Below are positions 12,001 to 51,535 of a DNA stretch of 64,000 nucleotides, one piece after another. A program made the position numbers and the translations under genes. The notes beneath the pieces are model-generated. The model saw only the letters and a list, made by a program, of their open reading frames with translations, made no database searches and had not been told where the DNA came from. Numbering within the stretch: the stretch's first letter is position 1; the number at the start of each line of letters is the position of its first letter. This DNA comes from Eledone cirrhosa. Taxonomy: Eukaryota. The stretch covers positions 46,376,001 to 46,440,000 of the forward strand of contig OZ024751.1 of the NCBI GenBank assembly GCA_964016885.1. The letters run 5' to 3'.

Positions 12001-13062
12001 CATGTTGTGTGGTAGTGAGATAGTGTAGTGTGGTAGTGAGATAGTGTAGTGTGGTAGTGAGGACATGTTGTGTGGTAGTGAGATAGTGTAGTGTGGTAGT
12101 GAGATAGTGTAGTGTGGTAGTGAGGACATGTTGTGTGGTAGTGAGATAGTGTAGTGTGGTAGTGAGATAGTGTAGTGTGGTAGTGAGGACATGTTGTGTG
12201 GTAGTGAGATAGTGTAGAGTGGTAGTGAGATAGTGTAGTGTGGTAGTGAGGACATGTTGTGTGGTAGTGAGATAGTGTAGTGTGGTAGTGAGATAGTGTA
12301 GTGAGGTGGTGAGATAGTGTAGTGTGGTAGTGAGATAGTGTAGTGTGGTAGTGAGGACATGTTGTGTGGTAGTGAGATAGTGTAGTGTGGTAGTGAGATA
12401 GTGTAGTGTGGTAGTGAGATAGTGTAGTGTGGTAGTGAGATAGTGTAGTGTGGTAGTGAGGACATGTTGTGTGGTAGTGAGATAGTGTAGAGTGGTAGTG
12501 AGATAGTGTAGTGTGGTAGTGAGATAGTGTAGTGTGGTGTGGTAGTGAGGACATGTTGTGTGGTAGTGAGATAGTGTAGTGTGGTAGTGAGGACATGTTG
12601 TGTGGTAGTGAGATAGTGTAGTGTGGTAGTGAGATAGCGCAGTGTGGTAGTGAGATAGTGTAGTGTGGTAGTGAGATAGTGTAGAGTGGTAGTGAGATAG
12701 TGTAGTGTGGTAGTGAGGACATGTTGTGTGGTAGTGAGATAGTGTCGTGTGGTAATGAGATAATGTAGTGTGGTAGTGAGGACATGTTGTGTGGTAGTGA
12801 GATAGTGTCGTGTGGTAATGAGATAGTGTAGTGTGGTAGTGAGGACATGTTGTGTGGTAGTGAGATAGTGTAGAGTGGTAGTGAGATAGTGTAGTGTGGT
12901 AGTGAGGACATGTTGTGTGGTAGTGAGATAGTGTAGAGTGGTAGTGAGATAGTGTAGTGAGGTGGTGAGATAGTGTAGTGAGGTGGTGAGGACATGTGTG
13001 GTGTAGTGTAGTGTGGTAGTGACGACATGTTGCGTGGTGGTGTAGTGTGATGGTGATGACAT
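1..13062. repeat. 21-bp minisatellite array (GTGTGGTAGTGAGATAGTGTA; main variant GTGTGGTAGTGAGGACATGTT), about 620 units, runs off the window start
   Basis: Tandem periodicity is directly visible. Units degenerate at the right edge (12960-13062). The long minus-strand ORFs are translations of the repeat. Confidence 0.98.
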
Positions 13063-14954: not shown

Positions 14955-15020
14955 GTTACTATAGTTGGTGTGCTGATAATTCTTACTGCTCTCAACATTT
15001 TGAAACCTCTACAGAATAAT
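14955..15020 (+). CDS. Internal coding exon of a multi-pass membrane protein gene (VTIVGVLIILTALNILKPLQNN)
   Basis: tattttcag| acceptor and |gtaagt donor. 66 nt, phase 0-0, open, hydrophobic. Confidence 0.8.
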
Positions 15021-21854: not shown

Positions 21855-21935
21855 GTCATTATATTAATGGTAATAGTCTTTGTCGGTGATGTCTTCGCTT
21901 TTATTTCATTTTGTATCTTTTGCGATTTGGCAGAT
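21855..21935 (+). CDS. Internal coding exon, transmembrane helix (VIILMVIVFVGDVFAFISFCIFCDLAD)
   Basis: ttttctgtttcag| acceptor and |gtaagt donor. 81 nt, phase 0-0, open, hydrophobic. Confidence 0.85.
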
Positions 21936-27500: not shown

Positions 27501-28281
27501 TGGCAGTGAGACCTGGGCATTGTGTGCAGAGGATATACGCAGACTGGAGAGAAACGAAGCTTGCATGCTCCGCTGGATGTGTAATAGTAATATACGTGAA
27601 TGGCAAAGCATAAACGAGCTAAGGGAGAAATTAGGAATAAGAGGGATCAGATGTTGTTCACTTGAGAGAAGACTATGTTGGTATGGTCACGTGATGCACA
27701 TGAAAGACGATAGCTGTATAAAAAAGTGTAGGGCGATAAAAATAGACGGTAGCCACGGAGTAGGCAGACCCAGAAAAACCTGGGACGACTTGATAAATTC
27801 CGACCTCACACACTTACACCTCTCCAAGACAATGTCACTGGACCAAGATCTTTGGCGCTACACAGTCATACAGAAGACCCGCCTTGCCTAAGTACAAAGC
27901 GAAACCTACAGTCAGTAGGCACCTCTAACAAAATACACCCCCCCCCGTCCACTACCCCCCCTATCCCCCCCCCCCCCTTAAATGTGAAGTTATGTTGGTA
28001 CCACAACATCCAGTCTGAAACAAATGAGATCGTGTAGGTGTCACGACAAAAAAACACACAGTCCACGCTGTAATGTGGCCGTGTAGGTAACACGGTAAAA
28101 ACCTCCCAGTCCACACTGTAAATGTGGTTGGTGTTAGGAAGGGCATCCAGCCGTAGAAAACCCGCCAGACAGTCCTATACGAGCAGGACAACAAATCTTG
28201 CCTCAAGTGGGAAACCTCCCGTCCAAACCCATGCAAGGGTGGAAGATGACCGTTAAACGATGATGATGATGATGATGATGA
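24570..28281 (+). mobile_element. Near full-length RTE-clade LINE (APE endonuclease, RT, PHD-type finger), disrupted
   Basis: APE motifs GTMNVGTL, CIQETRW, SAYAPQ, GDLNGH, QIDYIL. RT motifs FVDLEKAFD, QGSVLSP, YADD. (GAT)n tail. Frameshifts near 25245 and 26260. The 5' boundary is approximate. Confidence 0.95.
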
Positions 28282-29755: not shown

Positions 29756-29767
29756 GATTTCAGACAG
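29756..29767 (+). CDS. 12-nt microexon (GATTTCAGACAG, DFRQ)
   Basis: cttctattttgttatatttcag| acceptor and |gtatgt donor. Phase 0-0, in frame with the flanking exons. Confidence 0.65.
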
Positions 29768-30027
29768 GTATGTATTGTTTCGTCTTCTATATGCTCATCC
29801 TATATTTAACTATAAATCTATGGAGAACATTTGATAACATAGATCTTAAGATAACTAGTTTATAGTTCAATGCTAACACACCATATATATAGTGAACAAT
29901 AATTATGCAAGAACATATAGGCATCTTTCTGTCATTGTTGACCTTGTGTTTGCACCTGTAAAGTCTGGCTTCTAGACACAAGCTGTGACAATGTGTTTTT
30001 GTAGGAGACTAGCTGTGGCCGGAACTA

Positions 30028-30440
30028 TCTTACTATATAGTTATGTTTCAGGGGGTGTTATGCACATAAAAAATTCAACTTTTTGATCCCCTTGGGCCCG
30101 CATTAGGTGAAAAACTGCATTTTTTCAGGTTTTTAGGGGTTTTTTGAGGCGTTATGTCAGACCCATTTCCTTGAAATTGTAACTATGTATTAGTCAGTCT
30201 CTTCTTCATACTGTGAGCAAAGAAAATCCAACTTTTTTATGGCCTAGGGCCCCGCATTAGGTGAAAACCTGCATTTTTCCTGCTTCAACGAGTAGAATCT
30301 TAAAGATTATCCAGCCATCAGAGTATTCGGTTTAGTTTCTTTACATATTGTCGAGGCATGCAGTTTTTTCACGATTAGGTCTGTTGGCGGCCCGCATTTC
30401 AAAATACCTTGTCCCGTGCAACGCCGGGTACCACTGCTAG
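30028..30440 (+). mobile_element. Non-autonomous Helitron
   Basis: A|TC 5' end (TCTTACTATATA), subterminal hairpin CCCGTGCAACGCCGGG, 3' CTAG|T, no TSD. Internal direct repeat CCCGCATTAGGTGAAAA. Confidence 0.8.
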
Positions 30441-31476
30441 TTTAACATAAACTAGTTGTTCTCAACCATTCTACTACCAAGGATACTTTTAATTTAAATG
30501 AATTTTGCTCTGACATCTTACTTCCTACACCTAACAACATAAGCGAATGTTCATATTTAAAGGAGCATGGATTCCCATTAGCATGTAAATTTTTTATTTC
30601 TTTGTTCACCTCAAACAAGGCAATTGAAATTTCGAATCTAACTATTTTGTGAACTGCTGCATTGAAAACTGCTTTTTTATATTATCTTTCACAAATTTGA
30701 TTATAGTTCATCAACTGCTGCTTGTATACCACTCATACACTTTTTTCATGCTTACCTTCTACAAACTTACTGAGTGCTCACTGCTTATTCTCATTTCCCT
30801 AAATGTTAACCCTTTTGATGCCATATTCTAATGAAAATAATCGAGAGAGAATTTGAAGGGATTTCATAATATGTCTACTTAGCTTTCTCATTACTGATGT
30901 TTGGCGCATAATTCAACATATTGCACAATTGCACCTCTCAAAGGTGATGACTCAAGATCGAGATCTCTGGTGTTGTGCAGTAATACAGAAGACCCACCTT
31001 CCCATGTGCATGGGTTGAAGCAAACATCTTGTATGCATTACATTCCCCCTTCAATACACTCCTTGTCCTAACACCCCACTCTTCATCCACATCTCTCCCT
31101 CTGCATTGCACCTTCAATGTTCTAACATTCCTGACATGTCCTTACACACCAACCCTTCTCCAGGTAAGTGCCTCACCCTAGATCTACTTCACCAATACCC
31201 ATCTACCTCCTCCACCCCAGACCCCAATCCACACTGTAAAGTGGTTGTGTAGATGTCACAACAAAAAGGGCTCTGTCCACACTGTAAATGTGGTTGTGTA
31301 GATGTCATGACAAAAAGGGCCCTGTCCACACTGTAAATGTGGTTGGCATCCAGCCATATAAACCAAGCTAGAAACAGTTCTGTATGAGTAAAACACTCGA
31401 CCATGAAACGGGTTGTACTGGGCTACATGATACCAGTAGCAGGTAGAGGCTTGACCTGACAATATATATATATATT

Positions 31477-31513
<37 letters not shown>

Positions 31514-31544
31514 ATATTTATATATATATTTATTTATATAAGAA

Positions 31545-33936
31545 TGTACCCCACAGCATAGGTTAGTTGTTAGTGATATCTCAGTAAGCAAGAGATGGAA
31601 TGAGACATATAGGAAGGTGTGGAGAAGAAAGGTTTGGAAGCTAAAAGACCTTTCACTAAAATTCAAATTTAGGAAAGCCCTTCAAGATGTATATGACGAA
31701 AAAGAAGACGATTTAGAGACGTATGACATAGATAATAACTGGAAGTTCTTACGTGACAACTTGCTGCAGGCTACTGATGAAACCTGTGGCTGGAGCAGAG
31801 CTACAACCAGACAGAGAGTGACCTGGTGGTGGAACAGCACAGTAGATAAGGCTATTAGAGACAAAAGACTAGCATGGAAGGCTTGGAAAAAGGGTGGGAG
31901 TAGGGAAGAATATACAGCCACTAAGAGAGAAGCTAGACGTCAGGTGTACTTAGCACGCAGGGAGGCAGAGAGTAGGAGGTTTGCCAATGTTCTGCGACGG
32001 GAAGATCAGAGGCGTGCGGTGTTCCACATTGCAAGGCAGTGTGTCAATGCAAATCAGGATGTTGTTGGAGATAAATGTGTCCGGGATGATGCCGGTGTAC
32101 TTAGTGTCTCGAATGACCAGAAAAAAGGAGGCCTGGAAATGTCATTATGAGAGACTGATGAATGTGGAGAACGAATGGGAGAGAGAGAAATTACCCTTGG
32201 TAGATCCGACAGAGGGACCAGCTATTGAGATTGACGAATATAGGGTCCAAGAGGCGATTAGGGAAATGAAAAATGGTAAGGCGGCCGGACCATCGGGAAT
32301 AGTTGCTGAGATGCTGAAGGCATCAGGGGACGTAGGCACTAAACTGGTTGCATGCATCATCAATCAGGCTATATATGGTGGTGTCATACCCAAAGACTGG
32401 TGCAGCAGTATTCTCATAAATTGCTACAAAGGTAAAGGGGATGCTTTGGAGAGGAGCAATTATAGGGGTATAAAACTGATAGATCAGGTTATGAAAGTGG
32501 CAGAAAGGATTTTAGCACAACTAATTAGAGAAAGGGTCAAACTAGATGAGATGCAGTTTGGTTTTGTGCCTGGGAAGAGTACAACAGATGCCCTCTTCTT
32601 GGTGAGACAAATGCAAGAGAGGTTCTTAGAGAAGAATAAGCCACTATACTTAGCCTTTGTTGACCTAGAGAAGGCCTTTGATAGGGTACCCCGATCTGTC
32701 ATCTGGTGGTCCCTAAGGAAGCTAGGTGTTGAGGAATGGCTTGTGAGGACAGTGCAAACTTTGTACAGAGGTACTCTCAGTAAAGTCAGGGTAGGAATGG
32801 AGTTTAGTGAGGAATTCCAGATACAAGTAGGAGTACATCAGGGTTCGGTCCTCAGCCCGCTCTTGTTCATTATAGTCCTCCAAGCCATAACAGAGGAGTT
32901 TAAGACTGGCTGTCCATGGGAACTTCTCTATGCTGACGATCTGGCTCTTATAGCAGAATCAGTAGAGGAGCTAGAGAATAAATTCCGGCTATGGAAACAG
33001 CAGTTGGAAGCAAGAGGACTGAGAGTAAATCTAGTTAAGACAAAAGTGTTGATGAGTAGAAAAGAGGACAAAACCCTGATTCCGTCAGGGAAATAGCCAT
33101 GTTCGATATGCAGAAAAGGAACTGGCATAAATTCTATAAAATGCACACAATGCAGGTCCTGGGTACACAAGAGATGTAGTGGGATAGCAGGCAAACTAAC
33201 AGGTAGGGAGAAATATGTATGCAGTAGATGTACAGGGAAATTAGACAGTAGAAGTCGCACTGATAGACACATTTTTCAAATGCGAGAGGGCGCTATAGAA
33301 GTGGTGGATAGCTTCTGGTACCTAGGAGATCAGATTAGCATGGGAGGAGGGTGTTCTGAGGCCATAGTATCTAGAATAAGGACGGGTTGGAAGAAGTTTA
33401 GGGAGCTGCTTCCTCTGTTGACGAAGAAGGGTTTCTCCCTGCGTACGAAAGGCCGGTTGTATGATGCCTGTGTGAGGAGCACGATGCTGCATGGTAGTGA
33501 GACATGGGCAGCAACCGCAGAGGATATGCGACGGCTGGAGAGAAATGAGGCAAGCATGCTCCGTTGGATGTGCAGTGTAAATGTGCGTGAACGACCCAGC
33601 ATAAATGTGTTGAGAGAGAAACTGTGTCTGAGAGGGATAGAATGTAATGTACGGGAGAGGAGACTGAGGTGGTATGGACATGTAATGCGCATGGAGGATG
33701 ACCGATGGGTGAAGAAGTGCCAGGAAATGCTAGTTGAAGGAAGACGTGGTAGAGGTAGACCACGAAAAACATGGGCGGAGGTGGTGAGAACAGACCTCAG
33801 ATCATTGAAGCTCACGGTGGAGATGTCGAGGGACCGTGACGAGTGGAGAGATGCTGTGCTGAATAAGAACCGTCCCACCCTTGCAAGCAGGGAAAAGCGG
33901 ACGTAAAATGATGATGATTATGATGATGATGATGAT
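31545..33936 (+). mobile_element. 5'-truncated RTE LINE, second subfamily (RT plus PHD-type finger)
   Basis: FVDLEKAFD, QGSVLSP, YADD. Frameshift near 32125, TAG stop at 33094, (GAT)n tail. Confidence 0.95.
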
Positions 33937-33974
33937 TTATATATATATATATAAATACTAATAATTATAATAAT

Positions 33975-34200
33975 GGTTTCTTATATAGGCACAAGGCCAG
34001 TAATTTGAGGGGAGGGGAAAGTCGATTAAATCGACCCCAGTGCGTGACTAGTACTTTATTTTATCGACCCCGTAAGGATGAAAGGCAAAGTTAACCTCGG
34101 CGGGATTTGAGCTCAGATCATAAAGGGCCGTAACTCTATGCTGCAAAGCATGGCCTCCGACCCTCTACTGATACTGCCAATCCACCGATACTGCCAATTG
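33975..34200 (-). mobile_element. tRNA-derived SINE (Meta-domain-like family)
   Basis: Reverse complement of CTTTGCCTTTCATCCTTACGGGGTCGATAAAATAAAGTAC plus a tRNA-like head. Confidence 0.8.
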
Positions 34201-34309
34201 TGTACAGTGCTCAGATGCACAACTCAGCAAAAGTGTATAATTACTACATAGAATAATGTACAACAGTCATGATACACACACACGCACACACATATGCATG
34301 TGTATGGAA

Positions 34310-35200
34310 AGGGAAAATCAGGGGTAGTGTTGGTGAATTTCGAGAAGCATGGAAATTTTGAAGGATCCAGTGTCCGACAGCTAACCACCGATGCAGGTAG
34401 TTTGTTTCATGCTTCAGCAACTCTAAGTGTGATGAAATGTTTCCGAAAGTCATGCGAGCTGTACTGTTTTCTGACTTTGTAGGCATGTCCACGGGTGTTA
34501 GACATATGGAATTCAAAAAGGTGACCAAGTTATTGGCAAGATGATTAATAATCTTATGGGTGTCTACCAAGTCAGTTGCCAGACATCGGAGCTTTAATGT
34601 ATCCATGCCCAAGGAAGCAAAGTATTCAGAGTATGGTCGATGCCTGATAGATGGTATTCATTTGGCTTCAAGTTTCTGAACAGTTTCCAGGAGATCAATA
34701 TTCTGAGCAAGATAGGAATTCCAGACTGGTGATGCAAATTCTATAGCATAATAGCTATATACAGCTTTAAATAGATAGCAGGAGAGTGGCTAACAAAGGG
34801 CTTACTGAGTGATGTTAAGGCACACTCAGCCTTTTTGACAATTTTAGATATGTGTTTTGTCCAACACAAATCACTATTGACAATAATGCCCAGGTTACAA
34901 TCACAAGAAGACTTCTTTAGATTGGTGTTGTTTGAGGAAGTATGTGGAAGCTGGGTTTTTCCTCCCAAATAGCATGTCCACAGCCAGCTTGAGTTGCCAG
35001 TCCCATAATCTATTGCTGCATTGTGCCCAGGTCTGATTGCAGGAAAGATCTATAACATAGAGGATCTGTTTTTTTATCAGCACTGTTACATTCTTCATTT
35101 TGGCATCTATATTATGAATATATGCAAAAGGGGACCAAGAATAGATCCCTGTGGTGTACCAGTTGTCATCTCATAGGGTGAAGAATGCTGTCCTAGAACC
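34310..35200 (-). mobile_element. CR1-clade LINE 3' fragment
   Basis: Minus strand GTPQGSILGP ... TLKLRCLATDLVDTHKI ... TRGHAYK ... WNKLP-like motifs, decayed. Confidence 0.8.
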
Positions 35201-35249
35201 ATATGTATGTATGGATATTATCTCTTTATCTTAATTTCGAGTATATTTT

Positions 35250-37075
35250 TGACCGGCCAACTTCCTGGTGGCAAGGTTGTAAAAGAAAAGAAATTGTCAT
35301 CTCTTGAATCGCAAGAATGTTTTGCAAATTTTGAAGGTGCCAGCTATCGCAGCCATTTGTAGACTATGAATTAGGGAGCTACGCTCTTTGTCCGCAAATC
35401 CAAGTTCAGTTATTCATTGTTCCAAGCGGGTTGGTATATAACCCGTAGCTCCAATAGTGATGGGTATGAAGATAGAGGTGTATCTTGGATACTGTATTTG
35501 TAAACTCCTCATCAATGGTCCGTAGATGTCCCCCTTCTCCTGTATTTTTCTGACAACGTTTACATCAAGTGGGCAGCTGATCCCCACAACAGAACATGTT
35601 TTCAATGTGTGGTCCCAAACAACAATATCAGGCCGGTTGTGCTTTAATTTGGTGGCAGTTTTTATTTTCAGGTTCCACCAGTATTCCTTAGTGCCATCTG
35701 TCTCAATATATTCTTCCTCGTTTGTTGTTAATTTTGTTTTCCGAAGTGCGTTCCAGATGGTTCTAGCTATGCCATCGTGTCTCATGGGGAGGTAGTAGTG
35801 AGATGACATTCTTTCGCAGCTGGCAACAATGTGGCTTACATCTTCGATCTTTGTTTTACATAGCCTACATTTATTGTCAGCTGCTGGCCCTCCTCTTTTG
35901 TGCAGCAGATATTTGGTAGGGAGTTCTTGTTCTTGTATTGCATAGAGATATCCCCCAAGATGTCATAAACTTGTCGGAACTCCATGCCAGGCTTTTTGAG
36001 TGGTTTATCCCCTCTATGGCCTGTGTTTTATGTCTCAAGTATCCATGCACCACTTTTTCTGTAAATTGGTCAATTTTTTCATCTTGTTTGAACATTGAAT
36101 AAGATCATCCGATTTCTCTGGGTGAGAGATTTATATCAGGCTTTATTCCATATCTCTCCTCCAGATCAGTGGCTATCCTAATGATATTCTTTTTTTCATG
36201 CTCATAAACCTGGGCAAGATGGTTGCCAACCTTTTTCCTCTGTTGAAGATGTTGCTTCAGTGTTACTATCCGGGTCTCATATGATGTTAATATGGATTTT
36301 AGACCCCGGCCACCTTCCTTGCGTGAGAAGTATAGCCTATCCACATCACCATTGATGTTAAAGTTCCCAGTAACACCGAGAAGTTTGCGAGTTCTAACAT
36401 CCATCTCACTTAGTTCTTGCAATGACCAGTTCAGCAGGCCAAATGTTGGCGTTAGAATTGACACAGCATAAGTATTGTGGGCAATGTACTTGTACGCTGA
36501 CAGTTCTGATGACCATATTTTCTTTACTCTTCTGAGGTATTCAGTTCTCGTTCTCTCCTTATTTATGGGTCCATCATATCTGACATTCTCATCCTGTCCA
36601 AGATATCTGTAGTTGTCACCTGACTGTAGAGGTTGTATTGTCAGGCCGTTCATCTCTAGATTTCTAGAGGAGGGCACAGCTCTTCCACGTTTTACTGCCA
36701 AATATGCACACTTGGACTCACCAAATTTCATTTTGATGTCTGTTGAAAATTGTGTAATGAGGTCCAATTATTTCTTGATGTCATTGATATTTGGCCCATA
36801 CAACTTCAGGTCATCAACAAAGAAAAGAAAGGAGATACTTCTGGACCCACTTCTTTGTCCACCTTGTTTCCTGAGTAAGTAAGATAGTGGATTTAGTGAG
36901 AGAACGAAGAGTAGCACTGACAAGTTATCACTCAGAAAGATGCCCTTCTGGTAACGTAGCTTAGCAGTCTTAATCTGCTCCTTCTCACCTCTAAGGATCA
37001 AATTGGTGTACCAGTTCTTGGTCAGACGTTCAACAGCAGTTACCAGTGGTTGTGGGACTTTGGCTAACTGTAAAG
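35250..37075 (-). mobile_element. R4/Dong-like non-LTR retrotransposon fragment (RT, CCHC knuckle, restriction-like endonuclease)
   Basis: GIFLSDNLSVLLF, FFVDDLKLY, YRYLG, GGRGL, CRLC..H...C, RHD, NRPDIVVWD, PITIGATG. Confidence 0.88.
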
Positions 37076-37559
37076 CCTTAACAATGTATGTATGTATGTA
37101 TGTTTGTATGTATGTATGTTTGTATGTTTGTATGTATGTATGTATGTATGCATGTTTGTTTGTATGTATGTTTGTATGTTTGTATGTATGTGTGTGTATG
37201 ATGTATGTAAGTATGTACCATACATTTTGACATGAGAGATGATGTAGGTTTGGTATGTATGTACGTATGTATGTATGTATGTATGTATGTATGTATGTAT
37301 GTATGTATGTATGTACGTATGTATGTACGTATGCATGTTCTTTTGGTTTTATAATTTCATAGATTTCACGATAGAGAGAGAGAGTTGGTTTCTAACATAG
37401 ATACAAGATTCTCTCATTGGAATTTACACAATATCAACTAGGTAGATATGTCTGCATGTCTGCATGCATGTGTGTGCAGGTATGGATGTTATTGTATGTG
37501 TGGATGTGGATGTTTTGAGTTGTATGTGTGCATGTGTATATATCTGTACATGTGTATAT

Positions 37560-37905
37560 GCAGTTATTAGATGCAGAATTTTTGGAATCTTTTACATATT
37601 TTTACTGTTCCATTAATGTATTGTACTTGTAATTTCCTAACTAGTCGTGTTCTTTCTGTTTCTGTAAAGCCCAGCTTCTCAAGATTTGTATTGAGGCAGT
37701 TACTAACATATCCCAGTGCCCCAATAATCACAGGCATAAATCTGAAGGTATAGTCAGGGTGGAGTATCTGCAGATTTTTTATTAGTTCTGCATAGATATT
37801 CTCCTTTTTGCTAATCTGTGATATTATATTGGCATCTGACTTCCACTACTGTGCATGCCTTCTTTTCCCTGTCCCATATCATTAAATCTGGTCTGTTATG
37901 CCTTC
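37560..37905 (-). mobile_element. Second R4/Dong-like endonuclease-domain fragment
   Basis: Minus strand RHNRPDLMIWD ... PVIIGALGY ... GTVKICKRF. Confidence 0.75.
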
Positions 37906-38680
37906 ATATATACAGGCCTAGACAGGGATAGGCTTCACCAGTTTTAAAATGCCCAAGAAATGCTGTATCTCAATATGGTGCCCCTACAACCCTGTCAAAA
38001 GTTACAGGACCGTACACACACACACACACCCACACACACACACATATATATATATGCATACACACACACACACTCATACATAAACATACACATACACACT
38101 CATATGAAGACATACATAATTGCACATGCAGATACACAAAAACTATACAAGGATATGAATAATTACTGAAATACAGGTATTTATATTTTAAATATGTTAC
38201 CTTTTCGAATTAGATATATACATATATATAATGTGGTTGGTGTTAGGAAGGGCATCCAGCTGTAGAAAACTTGCCAGATACAGTTCTATATGAGCAACAT
38301 ATGGTCAACCGAACAATCTTGCCTCAAGTGGGACAATTACCATCTAACCCATGCCAGCATGGAAGATTTTGTTTTGGTCATGTCAGGGAAGAAGCAGTAC
38401 TCTCCACGCTTCACCAGTTGCGGATTGTTGAGAGAGAAAGAGTACGTCTGTGGTGCTCATGCTTAAGTGTCAAGACATGGCATTACTCAAAACTGACTTG
38501 CAACTATCATGTTCATATATGTGTGTGTGTATGTATGATTATGTGTATGTTCGTGTGTATGTATGTATATATGTCAGTATACTGTATATATATGAGTGTG
38601 TGTGCATAACATTTTGAAAATGTATATATTTGGCTGTATTGTTTTCTCATTTATTTGGCTATTTTGTTTTCTCATTTCAG

Positions 38681-38692
38681 TTAAACAAATAC
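38681..38692 (+). CDS. 12-nt microexon, copy 1 (TTAAACAAATAC, LNKY)
   Basis: ttttgttttctcatttcag| acceptor after an ~80-nt AG-free zone, |gtaagt donor, phase 0-0. Confidence 0.75.
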
Positions 38693-39892
38693 GTAAGTAT
38701 ACATGTTCTTTTAATATTTTCCCCCCAAAAAATCGTTTTGGTGTGTAGAGGAAAGTATGAAAGATGAGGATCACCGTGGCAGAATGAATTTATTTCCATG
38801 CAGACCTGCCAACCTCTAAAAACCCAAACTGGGAGTACCATGAAAAAATTCTAGAAATGTAGCAAAAAGGGGAGATTTTACACAATGAAAGCTATCCCCT
38901 TTTTCACAAGAGAAGACATTTCAGACTCTCCTCAAAGTGGATGGGAATCTCCCTGCTGGACGGGGAGAGTTGACAAGGTTGTAATTGAACAATAAACAGT
39001 AAATTACAAATTTCTATTTCTACACAATGAAGCACAATAAACTGTAGAACTGTCAAACTTTTGAACTGAAGTGAGCATGGAACAATAATTCCACTGAACA
39101 TAATTCTGTGGTGCCAGAAAAAATTGAGTACTCCTCAATCTATCGGAGTGTAATTTGAACCTGTTGGAAAAAATTGTGTACCTCTGTTTAGACAAAACAT
39201 AATATATAGGCAATAAACACAAGCACACTTGAAACACGTGATTGTGATATGATTGGCTGTCATTAAATAATTAAACAAATACACAGTACTTGTTAGATAA
39301 TACTCAATACAAGTTCAATATGTGACACTAGGTATCAGCAAGAATCTTGTCACACTGCCAATACACCTTAATTTCTTTCTTGTCACTAATCTATGGGCCC
39401 TATGACTCCCGATGGAAGTCATAGAATCTCTATTGTGGTACGCAGCTTGTGTCTTGCACATTTTTGGATTTCGTACAGCCTATCCCTCTCTGTGTCTGAA
39501 CACAGATGATTACTTCCAGAGAAAGAAGAGAATAGGAAAAGAGAGAGAGAGAAAGAAGTAGAGAGAGAGTGTGAAAGAGAGAGCGAAATAAATATATATA
39601 TCTCCCTCTTTTACTCATCCATTACTGGTGCCATAGCAAATATCATTGTCCTTCTTAACCTCTCCAGCACTGCTATGTGAATTACTCTCGTCTAAAACCT
39701 GGTGTCATCTTCAAGGACATCTTTCAGTGTGATGTTTTCTCTCTCAAGTCATCTGCATACATCTGGTTTCAAGAGAAAATCTCTGCCAGGAGTTTCATTG
39801 TTGTTTCATTTCCTCCTAGGCAACATGCTAAAGAGAATTTGTGTTTTATATTTCTGTATATATCTTGTTATTTCCTGAACTATATATATATG

Positions 39893-39965
<73 letters not shown>

Positions 39966-40831
39966 TTCAATGAAAACAGAAAGCTGGATTCTAAAATTCC
40001 ATTAATATTGCAATAATTACTATACGTATTTCTATGGCTTGCTTACATAATTAGATCATGACACAAAATATTTGGCAACATCATCAGATGTAAATTGCAA
40101 AAATTAAGTAACCAATGAATGGATTATAGCAAACATAAACAGAGAATAGAATTGATTCGGAGACGGCCTGTCATTCATTGTTTCTGTTATGACGAACCAC
40201 CTCCGGATGTGGGTCAGCATGTAAATAGTTGCTCACTTCCTTCTATCAAGCTAGTACCATAAATAGTAAACTACTAAAGTAAATATTTTACAGGGATTGC
40301 TATCATTTCTTCATATTTTACTAACACAATGTCTTAAGAGAGGGAGAGAGAGAGAGAGAGTGACTCATTAAAGCTGAAATATTGTTCATTGTTAATAATT
40401 TTATACTTCTTTATTCCTATTCTGCTTTATATTGTAAGTATACATTATTGGATAATATCTTATAGTAATTAGCAACGTTCATGAAAGGGCTCCATATATC
40501 CTAGTTAGTAGACAGTGATTGGAGTGTGGACACTTTAGTTGCCTATCACTCAACCATAAAGCATGTTGTACTGTGTTACAGGGTAGCAGGCATGTATCTG
40601 ACCTGACCATGACCATGATATATATATATATTGTATCGTGAAGTATGAAATTTATAGAAATTTGTAGAAAAAGACAAATATCTACAAATTTCATACTTGA
40701 CAAACCAATATATATATATATATATAGAGAGAGAGATGTAGTTATATTTTGTGTTATTCACTTTCTAATTAAATAGCTCTGTTCTATACATAGAGCACTC
40801 TTTTTTTCCTTTGCTTTTCCTTTGGAATTAC

Positions 40832-40876
<45 letters not shown>

Positions 40877-41670
40877 ACACATATATATATATATATATAT
40901 AAATATAAATTATTTATAACACTTACATATCAGTATCTCTATTAGTGTGTGCGTGTGTGTGTCTGTGTGTGTGCATGTATGTATGTATGTCTTCTAGTCT
41001 TCATTAAGGTATCTCTATAGGAGAAAGCTACTCTGATATAAAACCTGTAACTTTGTTTGTATCCAATGATGTAGACCAGTCCACCTTTTTGGGTGAATGC
41101 ATTCGATGTTCAGAGAGTGGGATTGGCGCCATGGAATGCCTTTCTTAAAAAAGCTTCAAGCACAGGAATCGCTTGATATGTGACATTTTTTGTGATGTGT
41201 GTCATTGCTGGCCATAGGCAAGTCCCTAGCAGGATTAAAAGCCATGTCTGTGATGCTCATGCTTAAGTATCAAGACATGGCATTACTCAAAACTGAGTTG
41301 CAGCCATCATGTATGTATGTTCATATGTATGTATGTTTGTATATATGTATGTCTGTATGTTCATATATGTGTGTGTATGTATGATTATGTGTACGTATGA
41401 TTATTTGTATTGACAAACCAATATATATATGTATATAAACATAAATTATTTACAACAGTTATAAAACTGTGTCTGTATTAGTGTGTGTGTGTGTGGAGCA
41501 TTACTCAAAACTGACTTTCAGCCATCATGTTCATATATGTGTGTGTGTATATATGTGTATATGTCCATATACTGTGTGTATATGAGTGTGTGTGCATAAC
41601 ATTTTGAAAATGTATATATTTGGCTGTCTTGTTTTCTCATTTATTTGGCTATTTTGTTTTCTCATTTCAG

Positions 41671-41682
41671 TTAAGGGGATCC
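41671..41682 (+). CDS. 12-nt microexon, copy 2 (TTAAGGGGATCC, LRGS)
   Basis: Same acceptor and |gtaagt donor context as copy 1. Confidence 0.75.
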
Positions 41683-42883
41683 GTAAGTATACATGTTCTT
41701 TTAATATTTTCCCAAAAAACAATCGTTTTGGTGTGTAGAGGAAAGTATGAAAGATGAGGATCACCGTGGCAGAATGAATTTATTTCCATGCAGACCTGCC
41801 AACCTCTAAAAACCCAAACTGGGAGTACCATGAAAGAAATTCTAGAAATGTAGCAAAATAGGGAGATTTTACACAATGAAAGCTATCCCCATTTTCACAA
41901 GAGAAGACATCTGACACTCACCCCAAAGTGGGTGAGAATCTCCCTGTTGGACAGGGAGAGTTGACAAGTTTGTAATTGAACAATAAACAGTAAATTACAA
42001 ATTTCTATTTCTACACAATGAAGCACAATAAACTGTAGAACTGTCAAACTTTTGAACTGAAGTGAGCATGGAACAATAATTCCACTGAACATAATTCTGT
42101 GGTGCCAGAAAAAATTGAGTACTCCTCAATCTATCGGAGTGTAATTTGAACCTGTTGGAAAAAATTGTGTACCTCTGTTTAGACAAAACATAATATATAG
42201 GCAATAAACACAAGCACACTTGAAACACGTGATTGTGATATGATTGGCTGTCATTAAATAATTAAACAAATACACAGTACTTGTTAGATAATACTCAATA
42301 CAAGTTCAATATGTGACACTAGGTATCAGCAAGAATCTTGTCACACTGCCAATACACCTTAATTTCTTTCTTGTCACTAATCTATGGGCCCTATGACTCC
42401 CGATGGAAGTCATAGAATCTCTATTGTGGTACGCAGCTTGTGTCTTGCACATTTTTGGATTTCGTACAGCCTATCCCTCTCTGTGTCTGAACACAGATGA
42501 TTACTTCCAGAGAAAGAAGAGGATAGGAAAAGAGAGAGAGAGAAAGAAGTAGAGAGAGAGTGTGAAAGAGAGAGCGAAATAAATATATATATCTCCCTCT
42601 TTTACTCATCCATTACTGGTGCCATAGCAAATATCATTGTCCTTCTTAACCTCTCCAGCACTGCTATGTGAATTACTCTCGTCTAAAACCTGGTGTCATC
42701 TTCAAGGACATCTTTCAGTGTGATGTTTTCTCTCTCAAGTCATCTGCATACATCTGGTTTCAAGAGAAAATCTCTGCCAGGAGTTTCATTGTTGTTTCAT
42801 TTCCTCCTAGGCAACATGCTAAAGAGAATTTGTGTTTTATATTTCTGTATATATCTTGTTATTTCCTGAACTATATATATATG

Positions 42884-42926
<43 letters not shown>

Positions 42927-43670
42927 TTCAATGAAAACAGAAAGCTGGATTCTAAAATTCCATTAATATTGCAATAATTACTATACGTATTTCTATGGCT
43001 TGCTTACATAATTAGATCATGACACAAAATATTTGGCAACATCATCAGATGTAAATTGCAAAAATTAAGTAACCAATGAATGGATTATAGCAAACATAAA
43101 CAGAGAATAGAATTGATTCGGAGACGGCCTGTCATTCATTGTTTCTGTTATGACGAACCACCTCCGGATGTGGGTCAGCATGTAAATAGTTGCTCACTTC
43201 CTTCTATCAAGCTAGTACCATAAATAGTAAACTACTAAAGTAAATATTTTACAGGGATTGCTATCATTTCTTCATATTTTACTAACACAATGTCTTAAGA
43301 GAGGGAGAGAGGGAGAGAGAGAGTGACTCATTAAAGCTGAAATATTGTTCATTGTTAATAATTTTATACTTCTTTATTCCTATTCTGCTTTATATTGTAA
43401 GTATACATTATTGGATAATATCTTATAGTAATTAGCAACGTTCATGAAAGGGCTCCATATATCCTAGTTACTAGACAGTGATTGGAGTGTGGACACTTTA
43501 GTTGCCTATCACTCAACCATAAAGCATGTTGTACTGTGTTACAGGGTAGCAGGCATGTATCTGACCTGACCATGACCATGATATATATATATATTGTATC
43601 GTGAAGTATGAAATTTATAGAAATTTGTAGAAAAAGACAAATATCTACAAATTTCATACTTGACGAACCA

Positions 43671-43707
<37 letters not shown>

Positions 43708-43802
43708 TGTAGTTATATTTTGTGTTATTCACTTTCTAATTAAATAGCTCTGTTCTATACATAGAGCACTCTTTTTTTCCTTTGCTTTTCCTTTGGAATT
43801 AC

Positions 43803-43853
<51 letters not shown>

Positions 43854-44665
43854 ACGCATATATATATATATATATATAAATATAAATTATTTATAACACT
43901 TACATATCAGTATCTCTATTAGTGTGTGCGTGTGTGTGTCTGTGTGTGTGCATGCATGTATGTATGTCTTCTAGTCTTCATTAAGGTATCTCTATAGGAG
44001 AAAGCTACTCTGATATAAAACCTGTAACTTTGTTTGTATCCAATGATGTAGACCAGTCCACCTTTTTGGGTGAATGCATTCGATGTTCAGAGAGTGGGAT
44101 TGGCGCCATGGAATGCCTTTCTTAAAAAAGCTTCAAGCACAGGAATCGCTTGATATGTGACATTTTTTGTGATGTGTGTCATTGCTGGCCATAGGCAAGT
44201 CCCTAGCAGGATTAAAAGCCATGTCTGTGATGCTCATGCTTAAGTATCAAGACATGGCATTACTCAAAACTGAGTTGCAGCCATCATGTATGTATGTTCA
44301 TATGTATGTATGTTTGTATATATGTATGTCTGTATGTTCATATATGTGTGTGCATGTTTATGTGTGTGTGTATGTATGATTATGTGTACGTATGATTATT
44401 TGTATTGACAAACCAATATATATATGTATATAAACATAAATTATTTACAACAGTTATAAAACTGTGTCTGTATTAGTGTGTGTGTGTGTGGAGCATTACT
44501 CAAAACTGACTTTCAGCCATCATGTTCATATATGTGTGTGTGTATATATGTGTATATGTCCATATACTGTGTGTATATGAGTGTGTGTGCATAACATTTT
44601 GAAAATGTATATATTTGGCTGTCTTGTTTTCTCATTTATTTGGCTATTTTGTTTTCTCATTTCAG

Positions 44666-44677
44666 TTAAGGGGATAC
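44666..44677 (+). CDS. 12-nt microexon, copy 3 (TTAAGGGGATAC, LRGY)
   Basis: Same acceptor and |gtaagt donor context as copy 1. Confidence 0.75.
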
Positions 44678-45863
44678 GTAAGTATACATGTTCTTTTAAT
44701 ATTTTCCCAAAAAACAATCGTTTTGGTGTGTAGAGGAAAGTATGAAAGATGAGGATCACCGTGGCAGAATGAATTTATTTCCATGCAGACCTGCCAACCT
44801 CTAAAAACCCAAACTGGGAGTACCATGAAAGAAATTCTAGAAATGTAGCAAAATAGGGAGATTTTACACAATGAAAGCTATCCCCATTTTCACAAGAGAA
44901 GACATCTGACACTCACCCCAAAGTGGGTGAGAATCTCCCTGTTGGACAGGGAGAGTTGACAAGTTTGTAATTGAACAATAAACAGTAAATTACAAATTTC
45001 TATTTCTACACAATGAAGCACAATAAACTGTAGAACTGTCAAACTTTTGAACTGAAGTGAGCATGGAACAATAATTCCACTGAACATAATTCTGTGGTGC
45101 CAGAAAAAATTGAGTACTCCTCAATCTATCGGAGTGTAATTTGAACCTGTTGGAAAAAATTGTGTACCTCTGTTTAGACAAAACATAATATATAGGCAAT
45201 AAACACAAGCACACTTGAAACACGTGATTGTGATATGATTGGCTGTCATTAAATAATTAAACAAATACACAGTACTTGTTAGATAATACTCAATACAAGT
45301 TCAATATGTGACACTAGGTATCAGCAAGAATCTTGTCACACTGCCAATACACCTTAATTTCTTTCTTGTCACTAATCTATGGGCCCTATGACTCCCGATG
45401 GAAGTCATAGAATCTCTATTGTGGTACGCAGCTTGTGTCTTGCACATTTTTGGATTTCGTACAGCCTATCCCTCTCTGTGTCTGAACACAGATGATTACT
45501 TCCAGAGAAAGAAGAGGATAGGAAAAGAGAGAGAGAGAAAGAAGATGAGAGAGAGTGTGAAAGAGAGAGCGAAATAAATATATATATCTCCCTCTTTTAC
45601 TCATCCATTACTGGTGCCATAGCAAATATCATTGTCCTTCTTAACCTCTCCAGCACTGCTATGTGAATTACTCTCGTCTAAAACCTGGTGTCATCTTCAA
45701 GGACATCTTTCAGTGTGATGTTTTCTCTCTCAAGTCATCTGCATACATCTGGTTTCAAGAGAAAATCTCTGCCAGGAGTTTCATTGTTGTTTCATTTCCT
45801 CCTAGGCAACATGCTAAAGAGAATTTGTGTTTTATATTTCTGTATATATCTTGTTATTTCTTG

Positions 45864-45894
<31 letters not shown>

Positions 45895-46786
45895 CTTCAA
45901 TGAAAACAGAAAGCTGGATTCTAAAATTCCATTAATATTGCAAAAATTACTATACGTATTTCTATGGCTTGCTTACATAATTAGATCATGACACAAAATA
46001 TTTGGCAACATCATCAGATGTAAATTGCAAAAATTAAGTAACCAATGAATGGATTATAGCAAACATAAACAGAGAATAGAATTGATTCGGAGACGGCCTG
46101 TTATTCATTGTTTCTGTTATGACGAACCACCTCCGGATGTGGGTCAGCATGTAAATAGTTGCTCACTTCCTTCTATCAAGCTAGTACCATAAATAGTAAA
46201 CTACTAAAGTAAATATTTTACAGGGATTGCTATCATTTCTTCATATTTTACTAACACAATGTCTTAAGAGAGGGAGAGAGAGAGAGAGAGAGAGTGACTC
46301 ATTAAAGCTGAAATATTGTTCATTGTTAATAATTTTATACTTCTTTATTCCTATTCTGCTTTATATTGTAAGTATACATTATTGGATAATATCTTATAGT
46401 AATTAGCAACGTTCATGAAAGGGCTCCATATATCCTAGTTAGTAGACAGTGATTGGAGTGTGGACACTTTAGTTGCCTATCACTCAACCATAAAGCATGT
46501 TGTACTGTGTTACAGGGTAGCAGGCATGTATCTGACCTGACCATGACCATGATATATATATATATTGTATCGTGAAGTATGAAATTTATAGAAATTTGTA
46601 GAAAAAGACAAATATCTACAAATTTCATACTTGACAAACCAATATATATATATATATAGAGAGAGAGAGATGTAGTTATATTTTGTGTTATTCACTTTCT
46701 AATTAAATAGCTCTGTTCTATACATAGAGCACTCTTTTTTTCCTTTGCAATTACGTAACACACACACACATACACACACACACATA

Positions 46787-47126
46787 TCATCATCATCATC
46801 ATCATTTTACGTCCACTTTTCCCTGCTTGCAAGGGTGGGACGGGAACTGATTCTGGCTTGATTTCTACAGCTGGATGCCCTTCCTAACACCAACCTCTTT
46901 TACAGTGAGTGCTGGGTGGTTTTTGCCGTGGCACCTACACGACCACTTTGCAGTGGAATGATAGGGACCCCAATCCCTATCATCTCATTTCTACAGCTGA
47001 GTAAACTGGAGCAATGTGAAATAAAGTGTCTTGCTCAAGGAAACAACACATCACCCGGTCTGAGAATCAAACTCACAACCTTTCGATTGTAAGGCCAATG
47101 CTCGAACCACTAAGCCATGTGCCTCC
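46787..47126 (-). mobile_element. CORE SINE inserted only in the third duplication unit, tail of the RTE subfamily 2 type
   Basis: Absent from units 1 and 2. The tail TTTTACGTCCACTTTTCCCTGCTTGCAAGGGTGGGACG matches the reverse complement of 33871-33908. Confidence 0.85.
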
Positions 47127-48152
47127 ATATATATGTATAAATATAAATTATTTATAACAGTTACATATCGGTATCTCTATTAGTGTGTGTGTCTGTGTGT
47201 GTGCATGTATGTATGTATGTCTTCTAGTCTTCATTAAGGTATCTCTATAGGAGAAAGCTACTCTGATATAAAACCTGTAACTTTGTTTGTATCCAATGAT
47301 GTAGACCAGTCCACCTTTTTGGGTGAATGCATTCGATGTTCAGAGAGTGGGATTGGCGCCATGGAATGCCTTTCTTAAAAAAGCTTCAAGCATAGGAATC
47401 GCTTGATATGTGACATTTTTTGTGATGTGTGTCATTGCTGGCCATAGGCAAGTCCCTAGCAGGATTAAAAGCCATGACTGTGATGCTCATGCTTAAGTAT
47501 CAAGACATGGCATTACTCAAAACTGAGTTGCAGCCATCATGTATGTATGTATGTTCATATGTATGTATATATGTATATGCATGTGTGCATGAGTATGTAT
47601 ATGCACGGGGATACAGAAATAGTCGGACTGGATATCTTATCGCACAGTTAAACCACTGGGAGTGAAGGACCCCTATCCTTTGTCAGGGCATTTTTCTAGG
47701 AGAAGGCAACTCTGGGACAACTCTGACATAAAACCTGCGGTTCAGTAGTTACCGATGATGTTGATCTTTTCTTCTTTTCGGGTTATAGCTTCTGTCAGTC
47801 AGAGAGTGGGATTGGCTCTGTGCACAGTCTTTCCTCACTTTATATAAAATCTTTACACACATGCATTGCACAAGAGAATTAATTAATAATTATTGATAAT
47901 GGTATATCATGCAATGGCCATACTCGATAACAAGGGGGCAGCCATCATCATGTTCGTATGTCTGTATGTCTGTATGTCTGTATGTTCGTATATGTGTGTG
48001 TGTGTGTATCTATGATTATGTGTTTGTGTGTATGTAATGTATGTATGTCCGTGTACTGTGTGTATATGTGTGTGTGCATAACATTTTGAAAATGTATATA
48101 TTTTGCTGTCTTGACTTCTCATTTATTTGGCTGTTTTGTTTTCTCATTTCAG

Positions 48153-48164
48153 ATAAACCTTTCC
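48153..48164 (+). CDS. 12-nt microexon, copy 4 (ATAAACCTTTCC, INLS)
   Basis: gttttgttttctcatttcag| acceptor and |gtaagt donor, phase 0-0. Confidence 0.75.
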
Positions 48165-48974
48165 GTAAGTATCCATGTTCTTTTAATATTTTCAAAAAAA
48201 CAATCGTTCCTAATTTAGATAAAATGCCAGTAAATTTTGGTGTGTAGAGGAAAGTATGAAAGATGAGGATCACCTTCGCAGAATGTATTTATTTCCATGC
48301 AGACCTGCCAACCTCTAAAAACCCAAACTGGGAGTACCATGAAAAAAAGTCGAGAAATGTGGCAAAATGGGCAGATTTTACATAACGAAAGCTATGTCCA
48401 TTTTCAGAGAAGACATCTCAGACTCACCCCAAAGTGGGTGAGAATCTCCCTGTTGGACAGGGAGAGTTGACAAGTTTGTAATTGAACAATAAACAGTAAA
48501 TTACAAATTTCTATTTCTACACAATGAAGCACAATAAACTGTAGAACTGTCAAACTTTTGAACTGAAGTGAGCATGGAACAATAATTCCACTGAACATAA
48601 TTCTGTGGTGCCAGAAAAAATTGAGTACTCCTCAATCTATCGGAGTGTAATTTGAACCTGTTGGAAAAAATTGTGTACCTCTGTTTAGACAAAACATAAT
48701 ATATAGGCAATAAACACAAGCACACTTGAAACACGTGATTGTGATATGATTGGCTGTCATTAAATAATTAAACAAATACACAGTACTTGTTAGATAATAC
48801 TCAATACAAGTTCAATATGTGACACTAGGTATCAGCAAGAATCTTGTCACACTGCCAATACACCTTAATTTCTTTCTTGTCACTAATCTATGGGCCCTAT
48901 GACTCCCGATGGAAGTCATAGAATCTCTATTGTGGTACGCAGCTTGTGTCTTGGACATTTTTGGACTTTGTAGC

Positions 48975-49056: not shown

Positions 49057-49820
49057 AGACAAGCAGGTAGATGAGTTGGCTGGTAGGTAGGTAGATAGGT
49101 AGGTAGGCAATAGATAGAAAGAAATATTTAGGTGGGTGATGGATGGGCAGTTAGATGGAAAGGGAATGGATAGGTGGATGGTTGGGTGGGGAGGCTGGGT
49201 GGTTGGTTGGGTAGTGGTTGGGTGGCTGGTTGGGTTGAGGTTGGGTGGCTGGTTGGCTGGTGGTTGGATGGCTGGCTGGTTAGTTGGTTAGTTACCTGGC
49301 TGGTTGGATGGTTGGTTGCATGGCTGGCTGGTTAGATGGTTGCCTGGTTGGTTGGCTGGTTGATTGTTTGGTTGGATGGTTGGCTGGTTGGTGGTTGGTT
49401 GTTTGGTTGGTTGGTTGGTTGTTTGGCTGGCTGGCTGTTTGGCTGGTTGATTGTTTGGTTGGATGGTTGGCTGGTTGGTTGGTTGCTTGGCTGGCTGGTT
49501 CGTTGGTTGGCTTGTTAGTTGGCTGGTTGGTTGGTTGCTTGGCTGGCTGGCTGGTTTGTTGGTTGGTTGGTTGGTTGGTTGCTTGGTTGGCTGGTTGTTT
49601 GGTTGGTTGGTTGGTTGGTTGGTCGGCTGGTTGGTTGGCTGGTTGGTTGGCTGGTTGGTTGGTTGGATGGTTGGCTGGTTGGTTGGCTGGTTGGCTGGTT
49701 GGCTGGTTGCTTGGCCGGTTGGCTGGTTTGTTGGTTGATTGTTTGATTGGCTGGTTGGTTGTTTGGTTGATTGTCTTGTTAGTTGGTTGTTTGGTTGGCT
49801 GGCTACATGGATGGCTGACT
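48975..49820. repeat. (GA)n followed by a degenerate (GGTT/GGCT)n tetranucleotide tract
   Basis: Visible directly. Confidence 0.95.
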
Positions 49821-50013
49821 GCATGTCAACAGCTCAGTGTATCAAGCTGTAAGTAGGTACCACAGAATAGTATAGTTCACTGTACTGTGTCTGTATCAAT
49901 GACCAAGGTACTTGACTATCATCAGCCCAGGGACACAAAGTTGTAAGTAGGTATTTCTTCAATTCAACTCACTCTGCTTTATTATATCAGTATTTTATTT
50001 ATTCCTTTTCTAG

Positions 50014-50121
50014 ATTCCGGCCCACTTAGCACTGAGTATCATCTCTGTACTCTTGTTGCTTGTCATTATTATCATTTTAAGCTTCATTTTATACATCCTC
50101 AACAGCTATCGGACAAATACT
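50014..50121 (+). CDS. Internal coding exon, transmembrane helix (IPAHLALSIISVLLLLVIIIILSFILYILNSYRTNT)
   Basis: ttattccttttctag| acceptor and |gtaagt donor. 108 nt, phase 0-0, long hydrophobic run. Confidence 0.88.

Positions 50122-51527: not shown

Positions 51528-51535
<8 letters not shown>

What the first reader, a model, noticed from the sequence alone, without database searches (positions are those of the whole stretch)
29756..48164. Array of hypervariable 12-nt microexons, multiplied by 3-kb tandem duplications, encoding the loop of a membrane protein
Seen: five ag|12 nt|gt units lie between the TM exons 21855-21935 and 50014-50121. They are DFRQ (29756), LNKY (38681), LRGS (41671), LRGY (44666) and INLS (48153). 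All are phase 0-0 and stop-free, so any subset keeps the frame. The last four occupy the same position in successive copies of a ~3 kb tandem unit and share ctcatttcag|...|gtaagt. Inference: a cassette system, mutually exclusive or combinatorial, that swaps 4-aa modules in a short, probably extracellular loop. It would be a microexon-scale analogue of Dscam-type exon arrays, apparently still expanding by unequal crossover. Standard gene predictors would miss 12-nt exons.
Basis: partly seen in the sequence, partly recalled or inferred. Interest (0 to 1): 0.93.

Follow-up and report, generated by a model that had tools for sequence, protein, structure and literature searches.

The report
Chained microexons lengthen an octopod protein
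In an octopus-like animal, five real 12-letter exons, four of them made by recent DNA duplications, are spliced one after another rather than chosen one at a time, so duplication has lengthened one loop of an unnamed membrane protein with four-residue pieces that seem to change fast.

Summary
The five 12-nt units are at the stated places and are real exons, but the Dscam-like reading fails. A spliced contig from the one RNA-like run laid joins exon 50014 to the last 6 nt of LRGS, all of LRGY and all of INLS in series. Its length (378 nt upstream of the exon; 376 expected with five microexons, 364 with four) suggests all five are included (inferred). The gene has ten coding exons, all phase 0, encoding a 181-aa four-helix membrane protein. 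It appears single-copy, has orthologues in Argonauta hians and Octopus vulgaris, and no family could be assigned. Both public gene models break right after the TM3 exon. The four duplicated cores vary at 7 of 12 sites against 34 of 364 in un-homogenised flank (P 6e-5), and every differing codon changes the residue. Counted as mutation clusters, P is only 0.06. Best reading: constitutive loop elongation by tandem microexon duplication, probably under diversifying selection. Minor or tissue-specific skipping is not excluded, because contigs drop rare forms and only one RNA sample was seen.

The parts
1..12990 (.). 21-bp satellite, part of a ~40-kb array inside the intron between the first coding exon and exon A. 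The first coding exon lies outside the window, 28 kb upstream (G000:C11:46347996-46348164 = L004:1996-2164, + strand; 169 nt, ATG at L004:2009; 52 codons, TM1 and first half of TM2)
   Evidence: satellite. First exon; 62% identical over its full length to Argonauta hians GAB1605111.1, which starts at the same Met; its link to the downstream exons rests on the orthologues and on contig length, not on a seen junction
14955..15020 (+).
   Evidence: matches both orthologues within the alignments of residues 1-101
21855..21935 (+). Exon B, 81 nt, phase 0-0, TM3
   Evidence: matches orthologues
29756..29767 (+). Microexon 1 (DFRQ), unique flanks, no detectable homology to the other four
38681..38692 (+). 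Microexon 2 (LNKY), tandem copy 1
41671..41682 (+). Microexon 3 (LRGS), tandem copy 2
   Evidence: its last 6 nt seen spliced to microexon 4
44666..44677 (+). Microexon 4 (LRGY), tandem copy 3
   Evidence: seen whole in the spliced contig
48153..48164 (+). Microexon 5 (INLS), tandem copy 4; supplies an N-x-S sequon
   Evidence: seen whole and joined to 50014
38480..48972 (+). Tandem array: about 2.6 near-identical 3-kb units plus a fourth partial unit; spacer heads homogenised, microexon blocks diverged
   Evidence: only these four copies of the exon-bearing part found in the genome
50014..50121 (+). Exon C, 108 nt, phase 0-0, TM4
   Evidence: 68% identical over 31 residues to the Argonauta protein
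58192..58266 (+).
   Evidence: spliced contig joins exon C to it; tail conserved in Argonauta

Best explanation
This is one gene for a 181-residue, four-helix membrane protein found so far only in octopods. The loop between TM3 and TM4 is built from five phase-0 microexons that are spliced in series in the main mRNA (shown for three, inferred for all five). One ancestral microexon was multiplied to four by tandem duplication. Each extra copy added four in-frame residues at no cost to the frame, so the loop grew from about 16 to 28 residues (inferred). Unequal crossover or gene conversion has homogenised the spacer DNA, while the blocks holding the exons stayed distinct and the 12-nt cores changed fastest, always changing residues. 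The most likely function (inferred, not shown) is a cell-surface tetraspan protein whose outer loop is a fast-evolving binding surface. Its diversity would arise between copies, alleles and species through exon gain and substitution, not by choosing one cassette per transcript.
For: Spliced contig (run X1, record 6, 408 nt): the 30 letters before 50014 equal the last 30 letters of the five cores joined in order. All 6 of 6 X1 records laid are listed; only this spliced form and one intron-retaining contig enter 50014. 378 nt lie upstream of exon C against 376 predicted with five microexons and 364 with four. The four duplicated units have consensus GTAAGT donors and no TGC in the 30 nt upstream of any of the five, unlike regulated eMIC microexons (PMC8797185, passage). 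Cores vary at 7 of 12 sites vs 46 of 875 flank columns (P 1e-6) and vs 34 of 364 in the un-homogenised block (P 6e-5). Every differing codon in all 6 pairwise comparisons is non-synonymous. Copies 1 and 2 differ at 29 sites from -120 to +297 but at 5 from +298 to +2780 (counted), and all four are identical from +300 to +719, the 'peak of divergence' pattern described in PMC3924837 (passages). The Argonauta model holds two near-identical 107-residue repeats at this same place that differ at their start and in a 4-residue patch. N-x-S/T sequons lie in loop 1 and in the INLS unit, with one just before TM4 in Argonauta.
Against: One RNA-like sample only, as assembled contigs, which drop rare variants; the run's kind is not on record. 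Only 30 upstream letters were shown, so DFRQ and LNKY were not seen directly. Variable sites are adjacent and may be multi-nucleotide events: as clusters, 3 in 12 vs 28 in 364 gives P 0.06 (0.008 against all flank). Cores hold only about 2-3 synonymous sites each, so no dN/dS is possible. The spacer tail before copy 4 is also about 5% diverged, so the divergence peak may only mark where conversion tracts ended. Topology is uncertain: loop 3 has 4 K/R, as many as the tail, and Argonauta also has a sequon in its tail. No family, ligand or tissue is known.
Confidence: 0.68

Rival explanations
1. Combinatorial cassette (schistosome MEG-like): the full form dominates in this sample, but other tissues or a sizeable minority of transcripts skip subsets of the five symmetric microexons, giving up to 32 loop variants.
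For: All five are phase 0-0 and stop-free, so any subset keeps the frame. Contigs drop rare variants. Near-identical splice signals on neighbouring copies could favour skipping (inference). MEG proteins vary this way (PMC8293314, passages). Four of five have long AG-free zones of 82-209 nt, a trait of regulated microexons.
Against: No skipped form among the 6 X1 records laid, although an intron-retaining form at depth 9.5 was kept beside the spliced form at 450. One unbroken 408-nt contig spans the region. No upstream TGC.
Confidence: 0.22
2. Neutral growth of a tolerant loop: serial inclusion as in the best explanation, but the duplications are accidents of a repeat-rich intron and the core differences are a few multi-nucleotide mutations in an unconstrained linker. 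This rival concerns the evolutionary part only.
For: Cluster-level P is 0.06. Four adjacent changes on the copy 2/3 branch could be one event. The intron is full of repeats. The single core difference between copies 2 and 3 has a 4.7% chance expectation.
Against: Site-level excess holds in the five pairwise comparisons with diverged flanks (P 0.002 to 9e-7). Relaxed constraint predicts cores equal to flanks, not above them. Independent branches (copies 2/3 and copy 4) both changed codon 3. The Argonauta model suggests a similar 4-residue difference between repeats.
Confidence: 0.3
3. Strictly mutually exclusive, Dscam-type array: one microexon per transcript.
For: Four homologous exons of equal length and phase in tandem.
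Against: Three of the units are joined in one contig directly upstream of exon C.
Confidence: 0.02
4. Assembly artefact or intronic look-alikes that are not exons.
Against: Both copy 2 and copy 3 cores appear next to each other in the spliced contig, so they exist as separate exons in cis. Copies 1 and 4 differ from the others by 5-9% near the exon.
Confidence: 0.01

Closest known systems
Avian fast troponin T (TNNT3) P exons encoding the Tx segment
   Same: A lineage-specific run of tandem-arranged small exons that together encode one variable segment (seven P exons; PMC5062619, passages and reference titles).
   Different: TnT is a soluble muscle protein and the P exons are alternative. That they are repetitive His-rich units is recalled, not read here. 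Here the units lie in a membrane-protein loop and have diverged into different sequences.
Schistosome micro-exon genes (MEGs)
   Same: Short symmetric exons, high dN/dS, surface or secreted products, a reported micro-exon duplication, hard to annotate (PMC8293314, passages; PMC10526429, first part of the text).
   Different: MEGs are mainly made of microexons (10-20 per gene), carry signal peptides and vary by skipping. Here microexons are 11% of the coding sequence, sit between conventional TM exons, and no skipping was seen.
Dscam1 mutually exclusive exon clusters
   Same: Tandem homologous exons of equal length and phase (listing abstracts).
   Different: Here the units are included together and are 12 nt, not domain-sized.
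Red/green opsin-type divergence peak under gene conversion
   Same: Homogenised intron DNA with divergence kept around the coding site (PMC3924837, passages).
   Different: The duplicates are exons inside one gene, not separate genes, and selection is not established here.
CD20-like/MS4A (PF04103) and MARVEL (PF01284) tetraspan proteins
   Same: Four TM helices, short termini, longer loop between TM3 and TM4; weak Atlas leads at 0.81 (CD20, 24% of cluster members) and 0.78 (MARVEL, 35%).
   Different: Scores are within the chance range stated by the tool; no Pfam, PDB sequence or fold match was obtained, so membership is not shown.

Membership tests
Dscam-type mutually exclusive exon array | Tandem homologous exons of equal length and phase | tested here: met
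   4 of 5 units are homologous, all 12 nt and phase 0-0
Dscam-type mutually exclusive exon array | Only one exon of the cluster per mRNA | tested here: not met
   three units in series in the spliced contig
Dscam-type mutually exclusive exon array | Docking-site/selector RNA pairing | not tested
   not pursued once serial inclusion was seen
Schistosome micro-exon gene (MEG) | Coding sequence mainly from symmetric exons of 36 nt or less | tested here: not met
   60 of 543 coding nt, 11%; definition from PMC8293314
Schistosome micro-exon gene (MEG) | Isoform variety by microexon skipping | tested here: inconclusive
   none seen in contigs of one sample, which drop rare forms
Schistosome micro-exon gene (MEG) | Accelerated non-synonymous change | tested here: inconclusive
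   site-level P 6e-5, cluster-level P 0.06, too few synonymous sites
Schistosome micro-exon gene (MEG) | N-terminal signal peptide | not tested
   no predictor available; the model begins with about 14 polar residues before TM1
Neural eMIC/SRRM4-dependent microexons | UGC motif close to the 3' splice site | tested here: not met
   0 of 5 have TGC in the 30 nt upstream; feature from PMC8797185
Neural eMIC/SRRM4-dependent microexons | Long AG exclusion zone | tested here: inconclusive
   82, 82, 82 and 209 nt for the four homologous copies, 20 nt for DFRQ; ordinary exons A and D also have 77 and 89 nt
Neural eMIC/SRRM4-dependent microexons | Neuron-specific inclusion | not testable with these tools
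   one RNA-like run, tissue not on record
CD20-like/MS4A (PF04103) | Four transmembrane helices | tested here: met
   four hydrophobic stretches in the model; four long helices at the matching places in low-confidence models of the Argonauta protein
CD20-like/MS4A (PF04103) | Match to the family profile | tested here: inconclusive
   no hit for four single exons or the two orthologue models, but the pieces are short and the models are broken; the intact protein could not be scanned
CD20-like/MS4A or MARVEL | Shared fold | tested here: inconclusive
   models at mean pLDDT 45 and 50; only generic helical bundles, best Z 9.1 and 8.9
Tetraspanin | Cysteines (CCG motif, recalled) in the large loop between TM3 and TM4 | tested here: not met
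   0 Cys in residues 98-125

The most novel reading that the evidence does not exclude
The loop is a modular recognition surface that evolves by birth, death and conversion of four-residue microexon modules. Copy number and sequence would differ between alleles and species, with independent expansion in Argonauta, and some tissue-specific skipping on top. That would be a microexon-scale polymorphic receptor for pathogen, gamete or self/non-self recognition in octopods.
Probability: 0.2. Interest if true: 0.82.

Novelty: new variant of a known kind. Interest (0 to 1): 0.52.

Why it matters
It catches microexon birth by tandem duplication at several ages within one intron (copies 0.4% to about 8% apart), with RNA support for use. 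It shows a route to loop growth that needs no mutual exclusivity. It gives a corrected model of an octopod gene that two public annotations get wrong at this intron. If the excess of change in the cores holds up across alleles and species, it points to an unrecognised fast-evolving surface protein in cephalopods, testable by one RT-PCR amplicon and one long-range PCR.

Tried and rejected
Protein search with exon C plus five intron codons against longer proteins: 0 of 91 candidates scored. phmmer of exon C against 1.84 billion representatives: 0 hits. Pfam on four single exons and both orthologue models: nothing over a cut-off. PDB sequence search with the two-orthologue profile: 4 weak hits, E 1-2, all in the Argonauta insert. 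Two AlphaFold models of the Argonauta protein, mean pLDDT 44.9 and 50.4; Foldseek gave no match at E 0.001 and VIA gave only generic bundles, with no MS4A, MARVEL or tetraspanin chain in the top 50, which is no evidence against membership. Atlas leads were all under 0.9. Paralogue searches in the own genome found only this locus at meaningful E-values; these exon-wise searches are insensitive. A PF04103 search of the genome gave 13 matches, none over cut-off and none at this locus. The Argonauta insert had no convincing match in the genome or fetched loci. The run search listed no holder on record as RNA; X1 is treated as RNA because its contigs are spliced. Of 323 open frames in the 200 kb of flank, I scanned 30, chosen mostly for length: only retroelement and transposase domains plus one sub-cut-off DUF, so no neighbouring gene was identified. 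Literature searches for microexon + cephalopod, octopus + MS4A, octopus/micro-exon/tandem exon and microexon/tandem duplication/selection/loop listed nothing on this gene (listings only; subscription journals are largely missing). DeMarco et al. 2010 was not held and is known here only through PMC8293314. No supplements were read. Earlier scan findings: none returned.
Full report
OBSERVATION. All five ag|12 nt|gt units are at the stated coordinates, in phase 0 and stop-free, and the two TM exons are as described. The window lies at G000:C11:46376001-46440000 in a 3.0-Gb genome. Named homologues place the organism among octopods: the first 101 residues of the model match Argonauta hians at 64 of 100 and Octopus vulgaris at 55 of 99 positions. 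The four later units are spaced 2990, 2995 and 3487 nt apart. Copies 1-3 lie in near-complete 3-kb units and copy 4 in a partial one. The exon-bearing part of the unit was found only four times in the genome; the other hits were to an interspersed repeat within the spacer. DFRQ has unique flanks. A 264-kb scan of both strands for strong acceptor + 3-30 nt + strong donor gave these five on + and one 27-nt candidate on - (thresholds chosen after seeing the five).

RNA TEST. A run search with exon C listed four holders from one study, none on record as RNA. I laid all four on 49810-50160. X2-X4 behave as DNA: they run on into the introns. X1 gives spliced contigs. All 6 X1 records laid are listed, and three touch exon C. 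Record 6 (408 nt, depth 450) enters at 50014 with a loose end whose 30 shown letters equal the last 30 letters of the five cores joined in genomic order: 6 nt of LRGS, all of LRGY, all of INLS. Record 1 (depth 9.5) retains the upstream intron. Record 5 joins exon C to a last exon at 58192. So three microexons are spliced in series and mutual exclusivity is refuted for this sample. This also shows that copies 2 and 3 both exist in cis, so the array is not an assembly artefact. Record 6 has 378 nt upstream of exon C. The first coding exon (169), A (66), B (81) and five microexons (60) sum to 376, four would give 364. Inclusion of all five is therefore likely but inferred. Limits: one sample, tissue unknown, possibly the same animal as the assembly, and contigs drop rare variants.

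GENE MODEL. Ten coding exons, all phase 0: a first exon 28 kb upstream of the window (L004:1996-2164) beyond a ~40-kb satellite, A 14955-15020, B, five microexons, C and D (stop at 58266). They give 181 residues with four hydrophobic stretches. The microexons supply residues 102-121 of the TM3-TM4 loop. Exons C+D match the Argonauta tail at 39 of 60 positions. Both public models fail right after exon B. O. vulgaris CAI9734194.1 continues into unrelated sequence and lacks TM4. A. hians GAB1605111.1 inserts two near-identical 107-residue repeats that differ at their start and in a 4-residue patch near their end. I read the latter as an independent tandem duplication of a microexon-bearing unit padded by the gene predictor; this is inference, since that DNA could not be fetched. 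No paralogue was found, with insensitive exon-wise searches. No family could be assigned: CD20-like and MARVEL are weak Atlas leads, and Pfam, PDB and fold searches were uninformative. An outer position for the loop is suggested by sequons at residues 38 and 119 and one before TM4 in Argonauta. Against it, the K/R counts are ambiguous and Argonauta has a further sequon in its tail. I put it at about 65%.

EVOLUTION OF THE ARRAY. Across the four copies the core varies at 7 of 12 sites against 46 of 875 flank columns (Fisher P 1e-6). Much of that flank is homogenised, so the fairer comparison is the block up to +297: 34 of 364, P 6e-5, after dropping 17 misaligned microsatellite columns. All differing codons change the residue in all 6 pairs. 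The changes are adjacent, however. Counted as clusters, 3 in 12 vs 28 in 364 gives P 0.06, or 0.008 against all flank. Copies 2 and 3 differ at 9 of 2237 aligned positions, one in the core (chance 4.7%). Copies 1 and 2 differ at 29 sites from -120 to +297 and at 5 over the next 2.5 kb (counted), and all four are identical from +300 to +719. One duplication cannot give this pattern; it needs conversion or repeated unequal crossover that spared the exon blocks (inference). It resembles the divergence peak described for opsins (PMC3924837, two passages). The spacer tail before copy 4 is also about 5% diverged, so tract boundaries alone could explain it. Selection is suggested, not shown (about 60%).

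MECHANISM. Shown: microexons are used, at least three in series; tandem origin of four; non-synonymous divergence of cores. Inferred: all five are included; inclusion is constitutive, helped by consensus donors and lacking the UGC mark of eMIC-regulated neural microexons (PMC8797185, passage); each duplication added four residues to an outer loop; the loop is a binding surface under diversifying selection. Rivals: MEG-like skipping as a minor or tissue-specific layer (0.22), neutral growth of a tolerant linker (0.3, concerning the evolutionary part only), strict mutual exclusivity (0.02), artefact (0.01).

COMPARISON. It works most like the tandem P exons of avian troponin T, a lineage-specific run of small exons building one segment (PMC5062619, passages). 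It shares symmetry and possibly fast change with schistosome MEGs (PMC8293314, passages; PMC10526429, first fifth of the text). It is not a MEG (microexons are 11% of the coding sequence) and not a Dscam-type array. Four searches listed nothing on this gene or on a cephalopod microexon array (listings only, open-access library).

VERDICT. A real, RNA-supported, recently expanded microexon chain in an unannotated octopod tetraspan gene. New variant of a known kind; interest 0.52.

Noticed in passing
window 1-12990 and upstream loci L002-L004: A ~40-kb satellite of a 21-bp unit with extreme GC skew (0.93-0.95) lies inside the intron between the first coding exon and exon A; a different degenerate ~30-bp tandem repeat lies just upstream of the first coding exon.
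   Followed up: partly
P0001 (Argonauta hians GAB1605111.1) residues 101-314: Two near-identical 107-residue repeats placed exactly in the TM3-TM4 loop, differing at their start and in a 4-residue patch (VGQS vs GAQG); possible independent microexon-unit duplication.
   Followed up: partly
P0002 (Octopus vulgaris CAI9734194.1) residues 100-111: The residues following the TM3 exon include an N-S-T sequon at 109 and may be real microexon-coded loop before the model goes astray.
   Followed up: no
window 19182-19916 and 20902-21621: Inverted pair of about 736 nt at 96% identity flanking a 1-kb piece, with a third copy near 51528-52151.
   Followed up: no
window 25426-28030, 31758-33775, 52654-55375: Three related 2-2.7 kb elements, 68-84% alike; probably LINE fragments, not scanned against a family library.
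   Followed up: no
window 58336-61387: A 3-kb AT-dinucleotide tract begins directly after the ATTAAA at 58331 that follows the stop codon.
   Followed up: no
window 50290-50751: Three copies of a 154-bp unit at 98% match, just downstream of exon C.
   Followed up: no
L011:2-3262 (-), L016:6545-9847 (+), L007:4555-7344 (-), L010:7012-8067 (+): Long open reverse-transcriptase frames (930-1101 codons for the first three); the fourth pairs RT with a weak GIY-YIG hit.
   Followed up: partly
L012, about 4.5 kb past the window's end: One run of N (200 N in the 264-kb region) about 10 kb past the stop codon.
   Followed up: no
window 49810-50043: Run X1 holds an intron-retaining contig upstream of exon C at depth 9.5.
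   Followed up: no
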